From sequence record NC_042128.1: a DNA stretch of 64,000 nt; one strand, 5' to 3'. This stretch comes from Escherichia phage RCS47. The stretch's first letter is position 1. Every line of letters starts with the position of its first letter. A program made the position numbers and the translations under genes. Below the pieces are notes generated by a model that was not told the origin of the DNA, did not search any database, and was given only the letters and a program-made list of their open reading frames with translations. Shown here in pieces: positions 3,373 through 37,179 of this stretch.

Positions 3373-3793
3373 CCTGTGCGAGATTTATTACGTAACTTCT
3401 GCGGATTTGCTGAGTAACAGGGAAAATCCGATACAACGGGTTAATGAACGAGTCGCCATGCGTAACCATGACGTTGAAATGCCACAGCCGTTCTCCTTTA
3501 CCCATATATTCAGTGGGTATGTACAACCATTCACTGTTTTCGCCCTGTTCAGCCGACGTCAGACAACGTTGTTCGCCTTCAATCACTGTCGTTGGCTTCT
3601 GAACATCGCGGATCCAATATCTGACCGTTGCGCCGCGCAAAAACGGGAATTTAGACCGGTATTTGAACGGCACCCGGATGAAACCCGGTTTAATTTCCAC
3701 ATCACCAAGTTCTAAATGCGTGATGTCCTTGCGTTTTAGCAAATAGCGATCGGCTAAGGCTAACGCAAGAACGCATACACCCCAGCCAATCAT
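3350..3793 (-). CDS. lydB: LydB-like lysis regulator (antiholin candidate)
   Basis: 147 aa with N-terminal hydrophobic segment; start overlaps the holin stop (ATGA); assignment is positional. Confidence 0.4.
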   Translation of the reverse strand: MIGWGVCVLALALADRYLLKRKDITHLELGDVEIKPGFIRVPFKYRSKFPFLRGATVRYWIRDVQKPTTVIEGEQRCLTSAEQGENSEWLYIPTEYMGKGERLWHFNVMVTHGDSFINPLYRIFPVTQQIRRSYVINLAQDVSDDEK

Positions 3794-4119
3794 TTCCCGC
3801 CTCCCTTTTTCACCAAACTTGTAAGAACATTCAGAATGCTATCGATATTCACTCGTTTCATCCCTGAAATCACCTCATGACCGTTATTGCTGGCTATCGT
3901 TACCATTAAGTACGTAATTGATAACTCCCAGCCCTCGTGTTGCCCCAATAGGTACGCCACCGCGCCAGCTGTCACTGCAACAAAGATCTCCGTAACCAAT
4001 CCCAACAAATTGCCAGACTGGCGACCGTCTCGGACATCCATCAGGAACGTGCCTATCCCACCAATTACTGAAAGCAGGAGCGCAATAGCAACTGGAGCTA
4101 ATTCCTGTGTGTCAAGCAC
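3790..4119 (-). CDS. lydA: holin (LydA-like)
   Basis: 109 aa with predicted transmembrane helices and charged C-terminus; first gene of the operon. Confidence 0.5.
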   Translation of the reverse strand: MLDTQELAPVAIALLLSVIGGIGTFLMDVRDGRQSGNLLGLVTEIFVAVTAGAVAYLLGQHEGWELSITYLMVTIASNNGHEVISGMKRVNIDSILNVLTSLVKKGGGK

Positions 4120-4179
4120 AAGTTCCCTCCTACGTTGTCAGGAGGTAATGGTATGCAAAGTAACTTCTCATCTGGTTGT

Positions 4180-4464
4180 TCATAATTTGCCAATACATTC
4201 GTAAATCAAGTGAAAAACCCATATTTTGGTTATTCTTAATACAAAATGGCTATTCCAACTACATATCAAAAAAGCAACCACATCCAAAAATGAGTTTCCC
4301 CACTGAACTTCTGCAAGACAAAAACCAACAAAACCACCTTTTATGGCAAGCAGCCATGCTTCAAGCCAATGTAAAAAACATGGCTTATAAGCTCCACGCC
4401 TAACTCCAGTAAGAAATAAATAGGTTCCACTAATAATGGACATTAAAAAAATCAAAATCTGCAT
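4180..4464 (-). CDS. small hydrophobic membrane protein
   Basis: 94-aa ORF preceded by a strong RBS (GGGAGGAG); very hydrophobic; AT-rich codon usage suggests an accessory gene. Confidence 0.4.
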   Translation of the reverse strand: MQILIFLMSIISGTYLFLTGVRRGAYKPCFLHWLEAWLLAIKGGFVGFCLAEVQWGNSFLDVVAFLICSWNSHFVLRITKIWVFHLIYECIGKL

Positions 4465-4585
4465 AAGCTCCTCCCGGATCTAACAAAAATCAAGCAGGAA
4501 CCTATTCAGATTGTTATTTCTGTGCATAACGCTTTGTTCTTTAAAATTCGCAGACTCATAAGAACAACGCATTAGAGTAAAAATC

Positions 4586-5147
4586 ATGCTGATCGGCTAT
4601 GTACGCGTATCAACAAATGAACAAAACACTGCTTTGCAACGAAATGCCCTTGAAAGCGCAGGATGTGAGCTAATTTTTGAGGATAAGGCGAGCGGCAAAC
4701 AGACTGAACGCCCTGGGCTAAAAAAGGTTTTGCGTATGCTTTCCAGAGGTGACACCCTGGTCGTATGGAAGTTAGATCGTCTTGGGCGCAGCATGCGTCA
4801 CTTGGTTGTGCTGGTGGAAGAGCTGCGTGACAGAGGAATTAATTTCCGGAGTCTCACTGACTCTATCGACACCAGTACACCAATGGGGCGCTTTTTCTTT
4901 CACGTAATGGGGGCGCTGGCAGAAATGGAACGTGAGCTTATCGTTGAACGTACACGCGCTGGACGTGATGCAGCTCGCGCAGAAGGTCGTAATAGGTGGG
5001 CGTCGGCCTAAATACCAAGAAGAAACATGGCAGCAAATGCGGCGATTGCTGGAGAATGGCATCCCCCGTAAGCAGGTTGCAATCATCTATGATGTGGCTG
5101 TTTCCACGCTTTATAAGAAGTTTCCGGCGTCGTCATTTCAATCCTAA
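4586..5147 (+). pseudogene. cin: Cin/Gin/Pin/Hin-family serine DNA invertase, interrupted by a +1 frameshift near 4990-4992
   Basis: N-terminal resolvase catalytic domain (MLIGYVRVSTNEQ...) in frame 1 stops at 5011; C-terminal HTH domain (GGRRPK...IPRKQVAIIYDVAVSTLYKK) continues in another frame from ~4980 to 5147; removing one A from AA at 4991-4992 restores ...AEGR-IGGRRPK... Confidence 0.8.
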
Positions 5148-31984: not shown

Positions 31985-32085
31985 TAAAATCCAAGGTGAA
32001 ATCGTGGCGATTTCACCTTGAAATTTTAGAGTAATTTACTTTAAAAACAGTCAGTTAATAGTGAAATTTGAATGGCGAAAGTTTA
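31985..32085. other. parS: plasmid centromere parS
   Basis: palindrome aaggtgaaatcgtggcgatttcacctt (heptamer ATTTCAC boxes with TCGCCA box) at 31993-32019, AT-rich putative IHF site, second GTGAAAT/TGGCGA arm at 32059-32081; immediately downstream of parB. Confidence 0.8.
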
Positions 32086-33084
32086 AGGCTTCGGCTTTTT
32101 ATCGAGGCTCTTTCTAAGGATATGCCCAATCATCCTGTCGAGTTCTTCCTGTAACTCTTTTGAGAGTCGATTAAACTCATAAGAAAATGCACGGCCTTTC
32201 ACGCGCTTCCTTGCAAAGCGATCCTTGTCCTCAAATTTCCATAATTCAGTAACTACGGACTTATCTTTAGAACCTTTATCCGTGAGTAGTGAGGCTTCCT
32301 TTGTTATCAAGCGCAGGATTTTATTTTTAACTTCATCTTCGGCCATTTCTTCAATGGATAAGATGTCGTTTATTTCCGGGGATATGTTTTGAATAAGCTG
32401 ATCAAACTCTAAATTCTTGTTCCCCATTTCGTCGCCAACAGCACAAAGCGTTTTGTAGTCCGAAAAGGTTAATTCCGACTGCACAGGGAAAAGGGCGACT
32501 AATTCTTCCGGAGCACTCGCTGCCTGGAGAGCACGCGTGACCTTCGCCTGAGACAGCCCTTCTTTGGCTGCAATATCCTTCTGACTCATCCCATCATTTT
32601 TCATTCGCATCAAACGCAGACCTATTTCTCGAATGCTGTGCTGCAATGCTGTCTGAACGTCTTTCGCTAAATTTTGCGCTTCCTGAACGCTGATCTCCTG
32701 GTCCGTGACTAAAACCCGCAACCCTACGTTCTCTAAGATGGCAGAAGCTCGACGCCGGGAACCATCCAAAATTTCAATTTTCCCTGTAGCCCGTCTGACA
32801 CCTATTGCAGGGTAAAATTGCTGATGCTTAATAGTGCTTCGGATACTTTTTAATGATTTTGGCGTAAGAGATGCCTGGTCACGCCCGTTGTTATGCTGAT
32901 CAACAAAGGTATCGCTTTCTACCTGGTTCGGAGGTATTACCTCTTCAATAAATGTGGCCTGGCGACCAGTTGATAACTTGAATACCTGCTCGACTCGATC
33001 GCCAGAGGCTGAAGAACTATCAAATCCGCTTAATATTGAAGGATTAAGGGTTCGCCCAATTGTTGGTCTGTTTTTCTTTGACAT
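32083..33084 (-). CDS. parB: partition protein ParB
   Basis: 333 aa; HTH ParB family; adjacent to parA and parS. Confidence 0.85.
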   Translation of the reverse strand: MSKKNRPTIGRTLNPSILSGFDSSSASGDRVEQVFKLSTGRQATFIEEVIPPNQVESDTFVDQHNNGRDQASLTPKSLKSIRSTIKHQQFYPAIGVRRATGKIEILDGSRRRASAILENVGLRVLVTDQEISVQEAQNLAKDVQTALQHSIREIGLRLMRMKNDGMSQKDIAAKEGLSQAKVTRALQAASAPEELVALFPVQSELTFSDYKTLCAVGDEMGNKNLEFDQLIQNISPEINDILSIEEMAEDEVKNKILRLITKEASLLTDKGSKDKSVVTELWKFEDKDRFARKRVKGRAFSYEFNRLSKELQEELDRMIGHILRKSLDKKPKP

Positions 33085-33100
33085 GGGGGTTTCTTACTCC

Positions 33101-34297
33101 TCAGTTAGATCTGATAAATTCAATACGGTCAAAAACTGCTTTAGCAAAATCTTCCGCGGCAATTCGCGCGTTCTTCAATGCATCAGCACTACCAACATAC
33201 GTTGCCGGGTTAGCTGAAATAACAGTGTCAAAAGACTCGCCGCAGCGTTCAAAACCGTCAAGGCGAGGGAGGACGACATCAAGCATATCCCCACCGAACA
33301 CTTCTTTAGCCAGGCTATGGCAATACTTATGGTCTGCCTTGTTACTCAACTTGGACATAAAACCAATGTTAGTCGCAAGCTGGCACTCGCAGCCTTCATC
33401 CGAAATGAGTTTTACCAACTCAGGAAGGCGGGCAACGTATTTAAGCGATGAGTGGAAATCAACCGTTGCAGGCGGCAGAGGTGTAAACAGTATATTGGCC
33501 GAGGCCAAAGCATTTTTCAGGAAGGCGTCAAGGTGAGGACCACTATCAACGAGGATAAAGTCATAATCGCTCTTCAGCTTATCAATCACATTTTCTTTCA
33601 GGACTGCATGGATGTTTTGACCCGGTAGATGCTCATTGCACAGCTCTCTCCAATCGGATGCAATAAAGGCATCGTCAATCGACGCAGGCATAACGTCAAC
33701 CCCAGGTACAACAGAAGGAACAATAAACTCCTCTAACAGCTCTTCACGGCTTACATTCTGCAACATAGCCTGTGCAGATGTTGCGTTTACGATACCAATA
33801 GAGTGTTTATGGCTTAAAAACATCGTTGCTGAAGATTGCGGATCAAGGTCAATAACCAGAATCCTTAAATCTTCCATCAGAAGATGAGGGTGAGCACGCA
33901 TTGCATGCGCCAGAGAAACCGTCGATACAGTTTTTGACACACCGCCTTTAAGATTGGAGATGAAAATCACATACGCTTCGCTGTAGCGATCCCGGTATTT
34001 TGGCACTCCGCGATGTTCATATATGTCAATGATGTTCTGAATTGACATCGCATATTTCATTGAAGAGCCAGCAGGGCGTTTATCGAAAACATAACCCTTT
34101 TCTTCCATTTCACTCACGGCATAGTCAACGTTCGCTCGAGTCAGTAGAGGCAATTTTGCCAGTGCCGCTTTCGCATAGACCTGGTAAAACTCGTTCGCGT
34201 GTAGCTCATCCTTTTGCAACTGTACTTGTTCAGTCAGAACATTGAGCATTCTGTTTGCTCTTTGAGCAACCTTGTGAAGCTGGCTGGAATCACTCAT
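33101..34297 (-). CDS. parA: partition ATPase ParA (type Ia, with N-terminal DNA-binding extension)
   Basis: 398 aa; deviant Walker A KGGVSKT. Confidence 0.9.
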   Translation of the reverse strand: MSDSSQLHKVAQRANRMLNVLTEQVQLQKDELHANEFYQVYAKAALAKLPLLTRANVDYAVSEMEEKGYVFDKRPAGSSMKYAMSIQNIIDIYEHRGVPKYRDRYSEAYVIFISNLKGGVSKTVSTVSLAHAMRAHPHLLMEDLRILVIDLDPQSSATMFLSHKHSIGIVNATSAQAMLQNVSREELLEEFIVPSVVPGVDVMPASIDDAFIASDWRELCNEHLPGQNIHAVLKENVIDKLKSDYDFILVDSGPHLDAFLKNALASANILFTPLPPATVDFHSSLKYVARLPELVKLISDEGCECQLATNIGFMSKLSNKADHKYCHSLAKEVFGGDMLDVVLPRLDGFERCGESFDTVISANPATYVGSADALKNARIAAEDFAKAVFDRIEFIRSN

Positions 34298-34366
34298 CGA
34301 AAGCCATCCTTTATGCTGTATTTTTGAATTTAATTAAAAATGCTGCATAAAATAATAATGTATGCG

Positions 34367-34383
34367 TAGATGCTTGTACATAG
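34367..34383. promoter_or_regulatory. candidate parA operator palindrome
   Basis: atgct-tgtaca-t-agcat near-palindrome in the parA promoter region. Confidence 0.3.
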
Positions 34384-34434
34384 CATTCTCTGCATGTTTG
34401 GTTCATTTTGCACGATTGAGAGTTACAAGGAGGG

Positions 34435-34460
34435 CACAAAAAAGCCCCGTTCAGGGGCAT
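34435..34460 (-). terminator. rho-independent terminator after the T5orf172 gene
   Basis: - strand hairpin gcccctgaacggggc followed by TTTTTTGTG. Confidence 0.6.
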
Positions 34461-34465
34461 CAGTG

Positions 34466-35275
34466 TTATTTGCTAAGAGCAGCGAATAATCGTTCGAAAT
34501 CGATAGTATCTATGGCACGCGTAAGCGCCGGAAGTTCAGCCTCAAAGTACCCGTGTCGATCGTAAAAGAAGGGACCGAAGAGCGAGGCATGTTGGATTCT
34601 ACTTCGCCCCAGCCCGGACACACAGTTAAGCCCATTACCGGCTAAAAGGCTAAAAAACTTCTCTGGATTATCGTGGTAAAGCTGGGAATCAATGGTGGCG
34701 GTTAACTCTTCCATAGGGAAGCACACCCGCCTTGTCTCCCAGGAATATTTAGTCCGAAGCATAAACATTGCTTTCAGCAATTCACATTGAGCGCGGATCG
34801 CGTCCGGTTCATAGCCAGATATGGAGACATAAGCCACGTCCCTCATTCCTGCGTCATCTTTGAAAGTCACGATAGAAGTAACATCCAGCTCTTTTTCGAA
34901 AGAGCGGGCAGCATCTACTGGACGCTGAAGTAAATCATTCGACTTAATGCGCTCGAGAATCCCTCCCCACATATCATTTAGATATTCGATATGAGCCAAA
35001 ACCTTATCAAGACACTCTCGTGTAAACCATTCAGTATGCCCGCCACCAGCGCTTTTCTCCCACGGCGCATTCCAGGGGAAAAAGGTTGCGTGTAAAGCCC
35101 GCTCAAGATTAACTATTGCCAAACGCGTACCACGATAGACCCGTGAAAGCGCAAAATCGGGACTCACTTGTAGCCCTTTAAACCGTGCCAATGGACCACA
35201 TGAAATGCCGATTTTAAAAGTATCTCCATTCTCCGGCACCAGAACGTAGAGGTAGTGTTGTTTCTCTTCTTGCAT
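34466..35275 (-). CDS. T5orf172 (GIY-YIG-like) domain protein with uncharacterised C-terminal domain
   Basis: 269 aa; N-terminus HYLYVLV...FKIGIS...R...E..LH..F...GGGHTEWF matches T5orf172/MUG113 signature including the EWF motif. Confidence 0.6.
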   Translation of the reverse strand: MQEEKQHYLYVLVPENGDTFKIGISCGPLARFKGLQVSPDFALSRVYRGTRLAIVNLERALHATFFPWNAPWEKSAGGGHTEWFTRECLDKVLAHIEYLNDMWGGILERIKSNDLLQRPVDAARSFEKELDVTSIVTFKDDAGMRDVAYVSISGYEPDAIRAQCELLKAMFMLRTKYSWETRRVCFPMEELTATIDSQLYHDNPEKFFSLLAGNGLNCVSGLGRSRIQHASLFGPFFYDRHGYFEAELPALTRAIDTIDFERLFAALSK

Positions 35276-35309
35276 ATCAATACCACTGCTTGATGAGAAC
35301 CGCGCAAAT

Positions 35310-35566
35310 GTTGACTATGCGCGAAAGTTAATGTGAATAGTTGACTATGCGCGATGTGACTACAGTCAAAAGTTGACTGTAGTCGATTTAACTCCACCAA
35401 AGATCGACTATGTAAGATATTGTCGGGAGAAACGTTGACTATACGCGATGAAATGACCCTAAAAGCCATCTCAATAGCAACTTGCAGAATATTGACGCCA
35501 GCAAAAATCCACCAGCGTCAACGAATGTCGCCTATAGTCAACTTCTCGCTATCGCATATAGTCAAT
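35310..35566. repeat. incA-like iteron array (copy-number control)
   Basis: at least 8 copies of TTGACTATRCGCGA-like repeats in both orientations between repA and parA. Confidence 0.6.
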
Positions 35567-35567
35567 A

Positions 35568-36452
35568 TTATGGATTGCGCTTATGGATCTGGAAGCCGAT
35601 TTTCCTGCCGTTTTTTATTTCTGAAAATTTAAGATATTCAATAGCTTCCAAATCTTTCATGGCTTTTCTGATAACGCTATTTTGCACGCTAACGGATGAT
35701 TTGAGATTAAGCCTTGCTCTAAGGCGCTCAATGCTGACAGGTGCCGGGTTGGCGGGTAGAGCCTCAAAGAATGTATACAGTACCTTGGCCGTCTCTTTGC
35801 GCCCGAGCTTATCCAGCATCTTCAGCTTCAGGATTCGCTTATAGTCAACATAGTAAAGTTCAGATAGCTGTTTCTGCGGCTGGATCTCGATAACATCAAG
35901 CTCAGTATTCAGGCTGCTATATGCCAACAAGTTGACGTTAATGTTATTGAGATGACCTTTTGCCGCCGGGAAGCGGAATTTGACAACTGTCTGCTGAATG
36001 CGTGTCAGAGAGTCATCAATACTTTTACGGAACGCCTTTGAAAGGCGCTTACGTGGATAGCCGCATCGATCGGCAAACTCGGAGAATGGCAGGGTGATTA
36101 TGCCGTCATCATCAGGAGCATAGTCAAACAACGCGGAGGTTATGCCCACCCACACCTTAAAATCAGTATCCATATCCAGGCGTGGACCATGAATTTCAAT
36201 TCCCTCATAGCCTTCCTGCTCAACAATTTTGAGGCTTGATAGTTCTTCGGTTGCGTTCGTTGTGTTTGTTGTAACTGACGATCCGCGACGTAGCGCCACA
36301 TTGGTAGATTTTAAGGTTGGCACAAACACACCTAAGCGCAACAAAGCTATGGGTTGTATAGTGCTGTTGTTATTGGGCTTCAGGCTGTGGATTTCTCCTG
36401 TATTTCCTGCAACTTCTTCAACGCTAAGGAAGCCTTTACTTTCTTCCGGCAT
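35568..36452 (-). CDS. repA: plasmid replication initiator RepA (iteron-binding)
   Basis: 294 aa flanked by iteron arrays on both sides. Confidence 0.75.
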   Translation of the reverse strand: MPEESKGFLSVEEVAGNTGEIHSLKPNNNSTIQPIALLRLGVFVPTLKSTNVALRRGSSVTTNTTNATEELSSLKIVEQEGYEGIEIHGPRLDMDTDFKVWVGITSALFDYAPDDDGIITLPFSEFADRCGYPRKRLSKAFRKSIDDSLTRIQQTVVKFRFPAAKGHLNNINVNLLAYSSLNTELDVIEIQPQKQLSELYYVDYKRILKLKMLDKLGRKETAKVLYTFFEALPANPAPVSIERLRARLNLKSSVSVQNSVIRKAMKDLEAIEYLKFSEIKNGRKIGFQIHKRNP

Positions 36453-36527
36453 CGTGGTTTCTCCATGTGTGGCGCGGCCTGGCGTTAATTTAGATGACTG
36501 TTATCAACAGCTGTGAATATTCAGGCT

Positions 36528-36745
36528 CTAAAATCGCGTACAGTCAACGTTTCTGTCGCGTATAGTCAACAATAAATCGCGTGCAGTCAACATAAAATCG
36601 CACACAGTCAACATAAAATCGCGTATAGTCAATGTTGATCCCGTTTCAGGCCATGAACGGCGCGGCTTACAGCGATCCGGGATCTTCTTTGGATCTTCCT
36701 AGGTTCTCTTTGGGATCTGTTTATTGGATCTATGCTGTGGATAAG
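36528..36745. other. plasmid origin oriR: 5 direct iterons (incC), 5 GATC sites, DnaA box
   Basis: five ~19-bp direct repeats (a/t)aaatcgcRtRcagtcaac at 36530-36633 with ~21-bp periodicity; GATC at 36674, 36681, 36692, 36714, 36727; perfect DnaA box tgtggataa at 36736-36744. Confidence 0.75.
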
Positions 36746-36786: not shown

Positions 36787-37179
36787 TTATTCTACGCTTT
36801 CGATAAGAAGACCATGTTCATAACATTTAAGCTCATCGCCTTCGTACAGGAATTGGTATCCAATACCACCATTTTCATGGACATTAGGGAATAACTCATA
36901 ACTCACTGAAGAGCAAATCACACCAATGCAGCGATCAACGCCTTCTCGTTCTTCAGTGCTGAAAAAATCCTCTTCGGTAAGAACATGAGTACATTGCTCA
37001 TCAGCATAGGTCGGAAATACATGCTCAATGCAATCCGGGTGTTTTAAACCAAGCTGAGCGGCAAGCTCGAAAGCATGACGGTATTGTTCAGATCCTGGCT
37101 TGCCAACAGTGATGTGCTCAATTTTGTAGATTGAAGTCGCTTTGTTGATAGTTTGCTTTACTGTTACTTTATCAGACAT
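36787..37179 (-). CDS. hypothetical protein
   Basis: 130-aa ORF. Confidence 0.4.
   Translation of the reverse strand: MSDKVTVKQTINKATSIYKIEHITVGKPGSEQYRHAFELAAQLGLKHPDCIEHVFPTYADEQCTHVLTEEDFFSTEEREGVDRCIGVICSSVSYELFPNVHENGGIGYQFLYEGDELKCYEHGLLIESVE

What the first reader, a model, noticed from the sequence alone, without database searches (positions are those of the whole stretch)
34435..35275. T5orf172/GIY-YIG-like domain gene inserted between incA and the parA promoter of the plasmid maintenance module
In the P1 prophage-plasmid backbone as I recall it, the incA iterons are followed directly by the parA promoter. Here a 269-aa ORF with its own terminator sits in that gap. Its N-terminus carries the T5orf172 signature (...YVLV...KIGIS...GHTEWF); the C-terminal ~170 aa resemble nothing I recognise. 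T5orf172 domains recur in phage-defence and counter-defence islands and are putative nucleases or DNA-binding modules, so this looks like an accessory cargo gene placed where it is co-maintained with the replicon.
Basis: partly seen in the sequence, partly recalled or inferred. Interest (0 to 1): 0.7.

Follow-up and report, generated by a model that had tools for sequence, protein, structure and literature searches.

The report
Nuclease gene riding a swapped plasmid replicon
The gene is real and encodes a probable DNA-cutting enzyme, but it is not a lone insertion into phage P1: it is the end piece of an alternative, already catalogued replication cassette found in hundreds of P1-like phage-plasmids, where it is dispensable, fast-evolving and often broken, as selfish or competitive nucleases are.

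Summary
Window 34466-35275 (-) is an intact 269-aa ORF followed by a strong intrinsic terminator. Its N-terminus passes Pfam's T5orf172 threshold and models as a GIY-YIG fold.

The repA and iterons next to the gene are not P1's. A 2,259-bp cassette (34400-36658: origin iterons, p0111-type repA', eight iterons, this gene) replaces 1,500 bp of P1. The gene lies within 67 bp of the cassette's par-side edge.

About 400 PLSDB plasmids and 412 of 5,426 complete E. coli genomes carry the gene, essentially one-to-one with repA'. PGAP already names it "GIY-YIG nuclease family protein", and the JL22 paper lists it as unknown gp57.

The only full-length relatives among 1.84 billion representative proteins (26-44% identity) occupy the same rep-par slot in three other P1-like lineages with three RepA types. 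The gene follows rep, not par.

The C-terminal domain has no sequence match. It models confidently as a winged helix closest to iteron-initiator WH1 domains, though it is acidic. Constraint is relaxed (pN/pS 0.34 against 0.08 or less for neighbours), and 10 of 49 copies are broken by at least six independent events.

Best reading (about 0.4): a selfish, homing-type or Odn-like nuclease linked to the replicon it travels with. Function is untested.

The parts
34466..35275 (-). 269-aa ORF: N-terminal T5orf172 (GIY-YIG superfamily) nuclease domain plus C-terminal winged-helix domain.
   Evidence: ORF list. Pfam PF10544 scores 26.8 bits against GA 20. phrog_2876 matches full length, E = 8e-193. PGAP names it 'GIY-YIG nuclease family protein' in plasmid records.
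34961..35275 (-). Nuclease domain, residues 1-105. Y10, K21-x-G23, R31 and E82 are conserved.
34469..34912 (-). C-terminal domain, residues 122-269. Predicted winged helix, closest to the WH1 domain of iteron-plasmid initiators. Acidic.
34444..34458 (-). Intrinsic terminator of the gene. It would also end any repA' read-through transcript.
   Evidence: Five GC pairs, a 5-nt loop and a T6 run. A similar hairpin follows the L006 homologue.
34400..34443 (.). Last 44 bp of the cassette, between the terminator and the point where P1 homology begins. It is conserved with L006.
   Evidence: The breakpoint with P1 lies at 34399/34400. Identity to L006 is about 80% although the two proteins are only 26% identical. 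Function unknown.
34352..34380 (-). Ppar, the P1-type par operon promoter. It belongs to the backbone, not the cassette.
   Evidence: Promoter scan found TGTACA-17-TATTAT. It coincides with the Ppar annotated in NC_005856 once coordinates are transferred.
35305..35570 (.). Downstream iteron array, the incA equivalent of the p0111-type replicon. Five iterons in one orientation at ~31-bp spacing and three in the other. The last one ends ~35 nt before the ORF's ATG.
   Evidence: Repeat families D2-D5 and inverted pairs I1-I25. Sequence view.
35568..36452 (-). repA' (p0111-type Rep_3 initiator, 294 aa).
   Evidence: Pfam Rep3_C and Rep3_N. Identity to P1 RepA is 40.5%. Literature naming.
36530..36640 (.). 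Five origin-side iterons at 21-bp spacing, the incC/oriR equivalent.
   Evidence: Repeat family D1/D2.
34400..36658 (.). The whole substituted replicon cassette, 2,259 bp. It replaces 1,500 bp of P1.
   Evidence: blastn of the window against NC_005856: 99.4% identity up to 34399, none across the cassette, 98.0% from 36659.
32083..34297 (-). parA-parB of P1 type. This is context and not part of the cassette.
   Evidence: ParA is 99.7% and ParB 100% identical to P1.

Best explanation
The gene encodes a two-domain endonuclease. An N-terminal T5orf172/GIY-YIG catalytic domain is joined by a ~20-residue linker to a winged-helix domain of the kind that iteron-plasmid initiators use for dimerisation and iteron contact. 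It is the terminal gene of the p0111-type replicon cassette of P1-like phage-plasmids.

Proposed mechanism (inferred):
- The gene is transcribed by read-through from repA' across the RepA-bound iterons, and transcription stops at its own terminator. Expression would therefore be highest when RepA is scarce, for example just after entry into a cell.
- The protein cuts DNA of a co-resident P1-type element that lacks the cassette. The target would be either the empty rep-par junction or the rival's iteron/origin region.
- Repair from the cassette-bearing copy needs homology in par on one side and upfA on the other. It therefore co-converts the whole replicon. Failure to repair instead eliminates the rival.
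- Either outcome keeps the nuclease genetically linked to the replicon it travels with, while the host element does not need it for maintenance.

Shown here by computation: the domain architecture, conserved catalytic residues, cassette boundaries, slot conservation, relaxed selection and recurrent inactivation. Inferred only: nuclease activity, target, transcription mode and drive/exclusion effect.
For: - Y10, K21, G23, R31 and E82 are invariant from 23% to 98% identity. R and E are the residues retained in the active T5orf172 nuclease Odn, and E180A kills Odn (PMC8263062).
- The layout is nuclease plus a separate fast-evolving second domain, as in homing endonucleases. Pairwise N-domain identity is 34-65% against 17-30% for the C-domain.
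- The second domain's best structural neighbours are replication initiators in two independent searches. This echoes Odn, which is T5orf172 plus RepA_N.
- The gene lies 67 bp from the cassette/backbone breakpoint in the window versus P1. It lies 84 and 63 bp from the breakpoint in the independent L003/L004 pair. Their flanks are 94-98.6% identical by blastn, but they differ in RepA type and in nuclease (27% identity).
- P1's flanks are as close to the window as those of other p0111-type elements, so the cassette or its flanks have moved between backbones.
- Homologues sit in the same slot with three RepA types and three par types, and they follow rep.
- pN/pS is 0.34, against 0.02 for repA', 0.01 for parA and 0.08 for parB.
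- 10 of 49 complete copies carry nonsense mutations, frameshifts or an insertion, from at least six independent events. This is the signature described for ICP1 T5orf172 homing genes (PMC10448857).
- A p0111-like repA with the same iteron layout works without the gene in a non-P1 element.
- No promoter-like site lies between repA' and the ATG, and no terminator lies between them.
Against: - No solo insertion of the gene next to a P1-type incA was found, so homing in the strict sense is not shown.
- The whole protein is near-neutral to acidic and the C-domain has pI 4.6-5.4. Sequence-specific DNA-binding domains and GIY-YIG homing enzymes are usually basic.
- The breakpoint beside the gene could simply mark the functional limit of the par promoter, since recombinants that break Ppar would be lost.
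- Only one end of the cassette carries a nuclease gene.
- P1's empty spacer shows no remnant of the gene and no recognisable target.
- No experimental data exist on this protein in the searched literature.
Confidence: 0.4

Rival explanations
1. Defence or anti-defence cargo. The nuclease attacks unrelated incoming phages or plasmids, or their modified DNA, on behalf of the host cell or prophage. It sits at the rep-par junction only because that position is tolerated.
For: T5orf172/GIY-YIG domains recur in conflict systems (papers listed). The gene is accessory, evolves fast and is often inactivated. P1-like elements have known variable regions that include repA-upfA.
Against: PADLOC gives no match at E <= 1. 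It is a single gene with no partner. The slot never holds unrelated cargo, only divergent homologues of this gene or nothing. Full-length relatives exist only in P1-like elements among 1.84 billion representative proteins, whereas defence genes usually spread across element types. Co-occurrence with one replicon type is essentially strict.
Confidence: 0.2
2. Domesticated, non-cutting accessory factor of the replicon. Through its acidic Rep-WH1-like domain it binds RepA' (WH1-WH1 pairing) or iteron-bound complexes. It would tune copy number or handcuffing, or insulate Ppar from rep transcription, much as the PLE protein CapR is a T5orf172 protein reused as a repressor.
For: The position is immediately downstream of the control iterons, the gene is probably co-transcribed with repA', and it follows rep rather than par. 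WH1 is the dimerisation module of Rep_3 initiators, and the hits 1hkq and 2z9o are dimeric forms. The acidic C-domain fits protein rather than DNA binding. CapR is a precedent (PMC8096241).
Against: The catalytic Y, R and E residues are retained in all lineages, which is not expected of a pure binder. RepA' is 84% identical between the window and L003 while the C-domains are only 30% identical, a poor fit to a conserved partner. About 20% of natural copies are broken with repA' and par intact. A related replicon lacks the gene. Any regulatory role is therefore dispensable.
Confidence: 0.15
3. Functionless passenger. It would be a decaying remnant of an old insertion that hitch-hikes with a successful replicon.
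For: Pseudogenes are frequent and constraint is relaxed. No promoter of its own was detected.
Against: The ORF has stayed open with conserved motifs down to 26% identity in four lineages. pN/pS of 0.34 is well below 1. About 80% of copies are intact. Base composition matches the backbone.
Confidence: 0.1

Closest known systems
Odn (ICP1 Gp88), the origin-directed nuclease, and its coliphage look-alikes (Inny, Muut, Mt1B1_P17)
   Same: A T5orf172 nuclease domain is fused to a domain of replication-initiator type. It has retained catalytic Arg and Glu and belongs to a mobile element engaged in replicon-level conflict (PMC8263062, PMC10448857).
Free-standing GIY-YIG/T5orf172 homing endonuclease genes (T4 Seg family, I-TevI, ICP1 T5orf172 HEGs)
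   Same: It has a nuclease plus a variable second domain and sits intergenic beside essential genes. It shows presence/absence polymorphism between near-identical genomes, lies at a boundary of genetic exchange, and suffers frequent frameshifts and stops.
   Different: It is never seen as a solo insertion with both flanks conserved. It always travels with ~1.4 kb of non-homologous replicon. No target site is identified. The protein is not basic.
CapR of the Vibrio PLE satellite
   Same: A T5orf172-family protein carried by a mobile element and possibly used for something other than homing.
   Different: CapR is a repressor of phage capsid genes with its own zinc-finger-type binding domain. Here the catalytic residues are kept and the second domain is unrelated.
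SLX1 / UvrC-type GIY-YIG nucleases
   Different: Sequence identity is only 11-16%. The second motif is K-I-G instead of Y-I-G, as is usual for T5orf172. Partners and biology differ.
WH1 domain of Rep_3 iteron initiators (F RepE, pPS10 RepA, MSBI1.176 Rep, RctB)
   Same: They are the best structural matches for the C-terminal domain, with about 100 of 125-129 residues aligned at 3.2-3.5 A. A phage COG5527 initiator tops the BFVD search.
   Different: There is no sequence similarity. It is a single WH rather than a WH1-WH2 pair. It is acidic rather than basic.

Membership tests
T5orf172 (Pfam PF10544) / GIY-YIG superfamily | Profile match above the curated gathering threshold | tested here: met
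   26.8 bits against 20, E = 7.6e-6, residues 8-85 on profile positions 2-87 of 101. MUG113 scores 15.6 against 22.3, so it is not met.
T5orf172 (Pfam PF10544) / GIY-YIG superfamily | Motif-1 Tyr, motif-2 x-I-G, catalytic Arg and catalytic Glu | tested here: met
   Y10, K21-I22-G23, R31 and E82 are present and invariant across family and remote members. The Asn of classical GIY-YIG enzymes was not identified.
T5orf172 (Pfam PF10544) / GIY-YIG superfamily | GIY-YIG alpha/beta fold | tested here: met
T5orf172 (Pfam PF10544) / GIY-YIG superfamily | Metal-dependent endonuclease activity | not testable with these tools
   Needs purified protein and an E82A control.
Homing endonuclease gene | Presence/absence polymorphism at one site between otherwise near-identical genomes | tested here: met
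   P1 and the window have 99.4% and 98.0% identical flanks, and the gene is present only in the window. The same holds for L003 against L004, with different homologues.
Homing endonuclease gene | Occupied and empty alleles differ by the gene alone, with both immediate flanks homologous | tested here: not met
   The gene always comes with repA' and its iterons. PLSDB counts are 401 against 399. No IncY-plus-gene recombinant was found.
Homing endonuclease gene | Recurrent degeneration (frameshifts, stops, deletions) | tested here: met
   10 of 49 complete copies are disrupted by at least six independent events.
Homing endonuclease gene | Cleavage of the gene-less allele and biased inheritance in crosses | not testable with these tools
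   Needs in vitro cleavage assays and co-infection or co-residence crosses.
Odn-like origin-directed nuclease | T5orf172 domain fused to an initiator-type DNA-binding domain | tested here: inconclusive
Odn-like origin-directed nuclease | The binding domain shows sequence similarity to the RepA of the targeted replicon | tested here: not met
   hhalign of the family against five P1-family RepA proteins gives probability 0.1. Only these RepA types were tested.
Odn-like origin-directed nuclease | Iteron-dependent cleavage of an origin | not testable with these tools
   Needs a nuclease assay on iteron-containing and iteron-deleted substrates.
Known anti-phage defence systems (PADLOC-DB v2) | Match to any defence-system protein model | tested here: not met
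   No families at E <= 1.
Canonical P1 (IncY) plasmid maintenance module | P1 RepA, 19-bp GATGTGTGCTGGAGGGA-type iterons, incA followed by Ppar | tested here: not met
   RepA is 40.5% identical to P1's. The iterons differ. There is no nucleotide homology between 34400 and 36658 apart from one 59-bp, 76% match inside repA. Only par is P1's.

The most novel reading that the evidence does not exclude
The protein is a replicon-linked gene drive. It would be a T5orf172 nuclease that uses an initiator-like winged-helix domain to find the iteron/origin region of rival P1-type replicons, either directly or by docking on iteron-bound RepA. Cutting there would convert or evict the rival. This would explain why rep modules reassort at this junction and why the p0111 cassette is now at least as common as P1's own IncY replicon (the nuclease gene in 412 against IncY repA in 359 of 5,426 complete E. 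coli genomes). It would be the first nuclease-based incompatibility or replicon-displacement mechanism described in a plasmid or phage-plasmid.
Probability: 0.2. Interest if true: 0.75.

Novelty: new variant of a known kind. Interest (0 to 1): 0.45.

Why it matters
P1-like phage-plasmids are common in E. coli and Salmonella. The p0111 cassette alone is in 7.6% of complete E. coli genomes, and these elements carry ESBL, mcr and carbapenemase genes.

They fall into two replicon types, and nobody has explained how or why one replicon replaces the other. A nuclease gene sits exactly at the exchange boundary and follows the rep module through several lineages. This gives a concrete and cheap hypothesis to test: nuclease-driven replicon conversion or exclusion.

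If the hypothesis is wrong, the practical value is smaller. The gene would remain a dispensable marker of the p0111 cassette, and some of its annotations need correcting (for example "terminase small subunit" in phi456).

Tried and rejected
- PADLOC and NCBIfam scans gave no match.
- A Pfam scan of the four C-terminal domains alone at E <= 10 returned only noise.
- A profile search of the PDB by sequence returned only a marginal GIY-YIG hit.
- hhalign of the family against P1-family RepA proteins showed no homology. The idea that the C-domain was recently copied from a neighbouring RepA, as in Odn, is rejected.
- I searched P1's empty 213-bp spacer for remnants of the gene with tblastn and with local alignment against shuffles. 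Nothing exceeded chance, so loss versus gain in P1 cannot be decided.
- The truncated protein clusters P0002 and P0003 (205 and 229 members) looked like common natural truncations. For each representative looked up, the ORF lay at a contig end.
- Contexts of remote N-domain-only relatives (P0154, P0155) were short metagenomic contigs with no rep or par genes. They give no support for a general nuclease-replicon association beyond P1-like elements.
- The third word-indexed protein search added nothing new.
- Base composition shows no sign of recent foreign origin: GC is 47.5% against 47.6% for the window.
- The literature search found only passing mentions and no functional work.

Full report
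**1. What is there.** The minus strand of the window carries, in order:
- upfA (36787-37179);
- five 21-bp-spaced iterons (36530-36640);
- a 294-aa Rep_3 initiator (35568-36452);
- eight more iterons (35305-35570, five in one orientation and three in the other);
- the 269-aa ORF in question (34466-35275);
- a strong intrinsic terminator (34458-34444);
- the par promoter (34380-34352);
- parA and parB.

Pfam's T5orf172 model matches above its gathering score (26.8 against 20 bits). PHROGs has a full-length family of unknown function (phrog_2876). PADLOC and NCBIfam have nothing.

**2. It is part of a replicon swap, not an insertion into P1.**
- ParA and ParB are 99.7% and 100% identical to P1's, but RepA is only 40.5% identical and the iterons differ.
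- Nucleotide homology with NC_005856 runs at 99.4% up to window 34399, disappears, and resumes at 98.0% from 36659.
- So 2,259 bp (origin iterons, repA', control iterons, this gene, terminator) replace 1,500 bp of P1 (oriR/incC, repA, incA, a 190-bp empty spacer).
- This is the "p0111" replicon of P1-like phage-plasmids. [quoted passage not shown] - In PLSDB, repA' occurs in 399 records, this gene in 401 and the whole cassette in 392. The small differences come from records that start inside the region or from IS disruptions.
- In complete E. coli genomes the gene is in 412 of 5,426, against 359 for P1's own repA.

**3. The family and its slot.**
- An exhaustive HMMER search of 1.84 billion representative proteins found about 160 proteins sharing the N-terminal domain. 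Only three other clusters were alignable over the full length: P0004 (44%), P0009 and P0011 (about 26%).
- All three lie between repA-plus-iterons and parA in divergent P1-like elements.
- L003 has a p0111-like RepA (84% identical to the window's). L004 has a P1-like RepA (83% identical to P1's). L006 has a third type (42-48% to the others).
- L003 and L004 have flanks 94-98.6% identical by blastn, with ParA and gp23 99.5-99.7% identical. They differ in RepA type and in the nuclease (27% identity). Homology resumes 84 and 63 bp after the nuclease stop codon. This is the same place, just upstream of Ppar, as in the window/P1 pair.
- Other IncY elements combine P1's rep with a P7-like par. They have only about 115 bp, and no gene, between incA and parA.
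- Hence rep and par modules reassort at this junction. The slot holds either nothing or a member of this one family, and the nuclease follows rep rather than par.
- A p0111-like repA with the same iteron layout sits in a non-P1 phage-like plasmid without the gene. The replicon therefore does not need it.

**4. The protein.**
- Residues Y10, K21, G23, R31 and E82 are invariant from 98% down to 23% identity. These are the GIY, x-I-G, Arg and Glu positions of the superfamily. Arg and Glu are the residues retained in Odn, whose E180A mutant is inactive.
- The C-terminal 148 residues, modelled alone, give a confident model (pLDDT 84.7, pTM 0.81).
- The best BFVD neighbour is a phage COG5527 plasmid replication initiator (E = 1.7e-3).
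- This is a fold-level resemblance only. There is no sequence signal to Pfam or to the neighbouring RepA proteins.
- The domain is acidic in all four lineages (pI 4.6-5.4). That fits protein-protein contact at least as well as DNA binding.

**5. Selection.**
- Among 48-49 complete copies gathered from phage, plasmid and IMG/VR records, pN/pS is 0.34 for this gene. It is 0.02 for repA', 0.01 for parA and 0.08 for parB.
- Ten copies are disrupted by at least six independent events: S112 to stop in five copies, W68 to stop, Q228 to stop (phage SJ46), a 2-bp deletion, two 1-bp deletions, and a 1.8-kb insertion with deletion.
- Between lineages the N-domain keeps 34-65% identity while the C-domain drops to 17-30%.
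- The gene is therefore dispensable for maintenance and under weak but real purifying selection. It repeatedly decays, which is the pattern described for ICP1's T5orf172 homing genes.

**6. Expression signals.**
- No sigma-70-like site and no terminator lie between repA' and the ATG. The last iteron ends about 35 nt upstream, an arrangement repeated in L003, L004 and L006.
- Read-through from the autoregulated repA' promoter across RepA-occupied iterons is the simplest reading. This is inferred, not shown.

**7. Mechanism.**
- My best explanation (confidence about 0.4) is a selfish or competitive site-specific nuclease tied to the replicon cassette. It would cut cassette-less P1-type DNA, so that repair co-converts the replicon or the rival is lost.
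- The main weaknesses are the absence of any solo insertion, the acidic protein, the modest structural scores, and the fact that the breakpoint could simply mark the edge of the par promoter.
- Rivals are generic defence cargo (0.2), a domesticated RepA-interacting or regulatory factor (0.15) and a functionless passenger (0.1).

**8. Novelty.**
- The gene and its linkage to repA' are already recorded, and the T5orf172 call is already in public annotation.
- New from this analysis are the initiator-like second domain, the conservation of the slot across RepA types, the position at exchange boundaries in two independent backbone pairs, and the population signature of relaxed constraint.
- Relative to Odn and T5orf172 homing genes this is a new variant of a known kind, with function untested. 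Interest is moderate (0.45).

Noticed in passing
window 34400-34458; L006 5995-6060: The terminator and the ~35 nt after it are about 80% identical between the window and L006. The two nuclease proteins are only 26% identical and the par modules differ. This conserved non-coding segment at the cassette end has no assigned role. L003 and L004 lack it.
   Followed up: partly
L068 (CP063718.1) and L069 (AP027478.1), locus ~3885-4001: Many IncY-type P1-like plasmids pair P1's repA/incA with a P7-like par operon (ParA 401 aa, ParB 321 aa). Only ~115 bp separate incA from the parA ATG, and there is no gene in between. Rep and par modules therefore reassort at this junction independently of the nuclease gene.
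   Followed up: partly
L011 (CP042620.1) 3770-5070: A repA 77% identical in nucleotides to repA', with the same two-sided iteron layout, sits next to tail genes in a 93.6-kb non-P1 phage-like plasmid. It has no T5orf172 gene. The p0111-type replicon is thus not confined to P1-like elements.
   Followed up: partly
L003, L004/L005, L006: These are divergent P1-like lineages (major capsid protein gp23 ~80% identical to P1) from Logan and NCBI assemblies. L003 and L004 form a near-identical backbone pair that carries either a p0111-like or an IncY-like replicon. This is a second, independent case of replicon swapping.
   Followed up: partly
window 35305-35570 and 36530-36640: The p0111-type replicon has five 21-bp-spaced iterons upstream of repA' and eight downstream (five plus three in opposite orientations). 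This mirrors P1's incC/incA layout despite only 40% RepA identity. One further iteron-like copy lies inside repA' (35835-35849).
   Followed up: partly
OR339795.1 (L013 1601-2410); PLSDB typing of L009/L010: There is annotation noise. Phage phi456 labels this gene 'terminase small subunit'. RefSeq phage records call RepA a 'replication helicase'. MOB-suite types the p0111 replicon as IncHI1B.
   Followed up: no
L012 (NZ_AP027538.1) 4001-4258: In a 231-kb IncFIB cointegrate the gene is cut to its last 258 nt by IS1, and repA' is gone while parAB remain. It is an example of a P1-like par module surviving without its replicon.
   Followed up: no
protein clusters P0002 and P0003: More than 400 database entries for this protein are fragments. 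The two representatives looked up lie at contig ends, one at a contig end and one at a contig start. Draft assemblies may often break inside or beside this gene. The cause was not examined; co-resident related elements are one possibility.
   Followed up: partly
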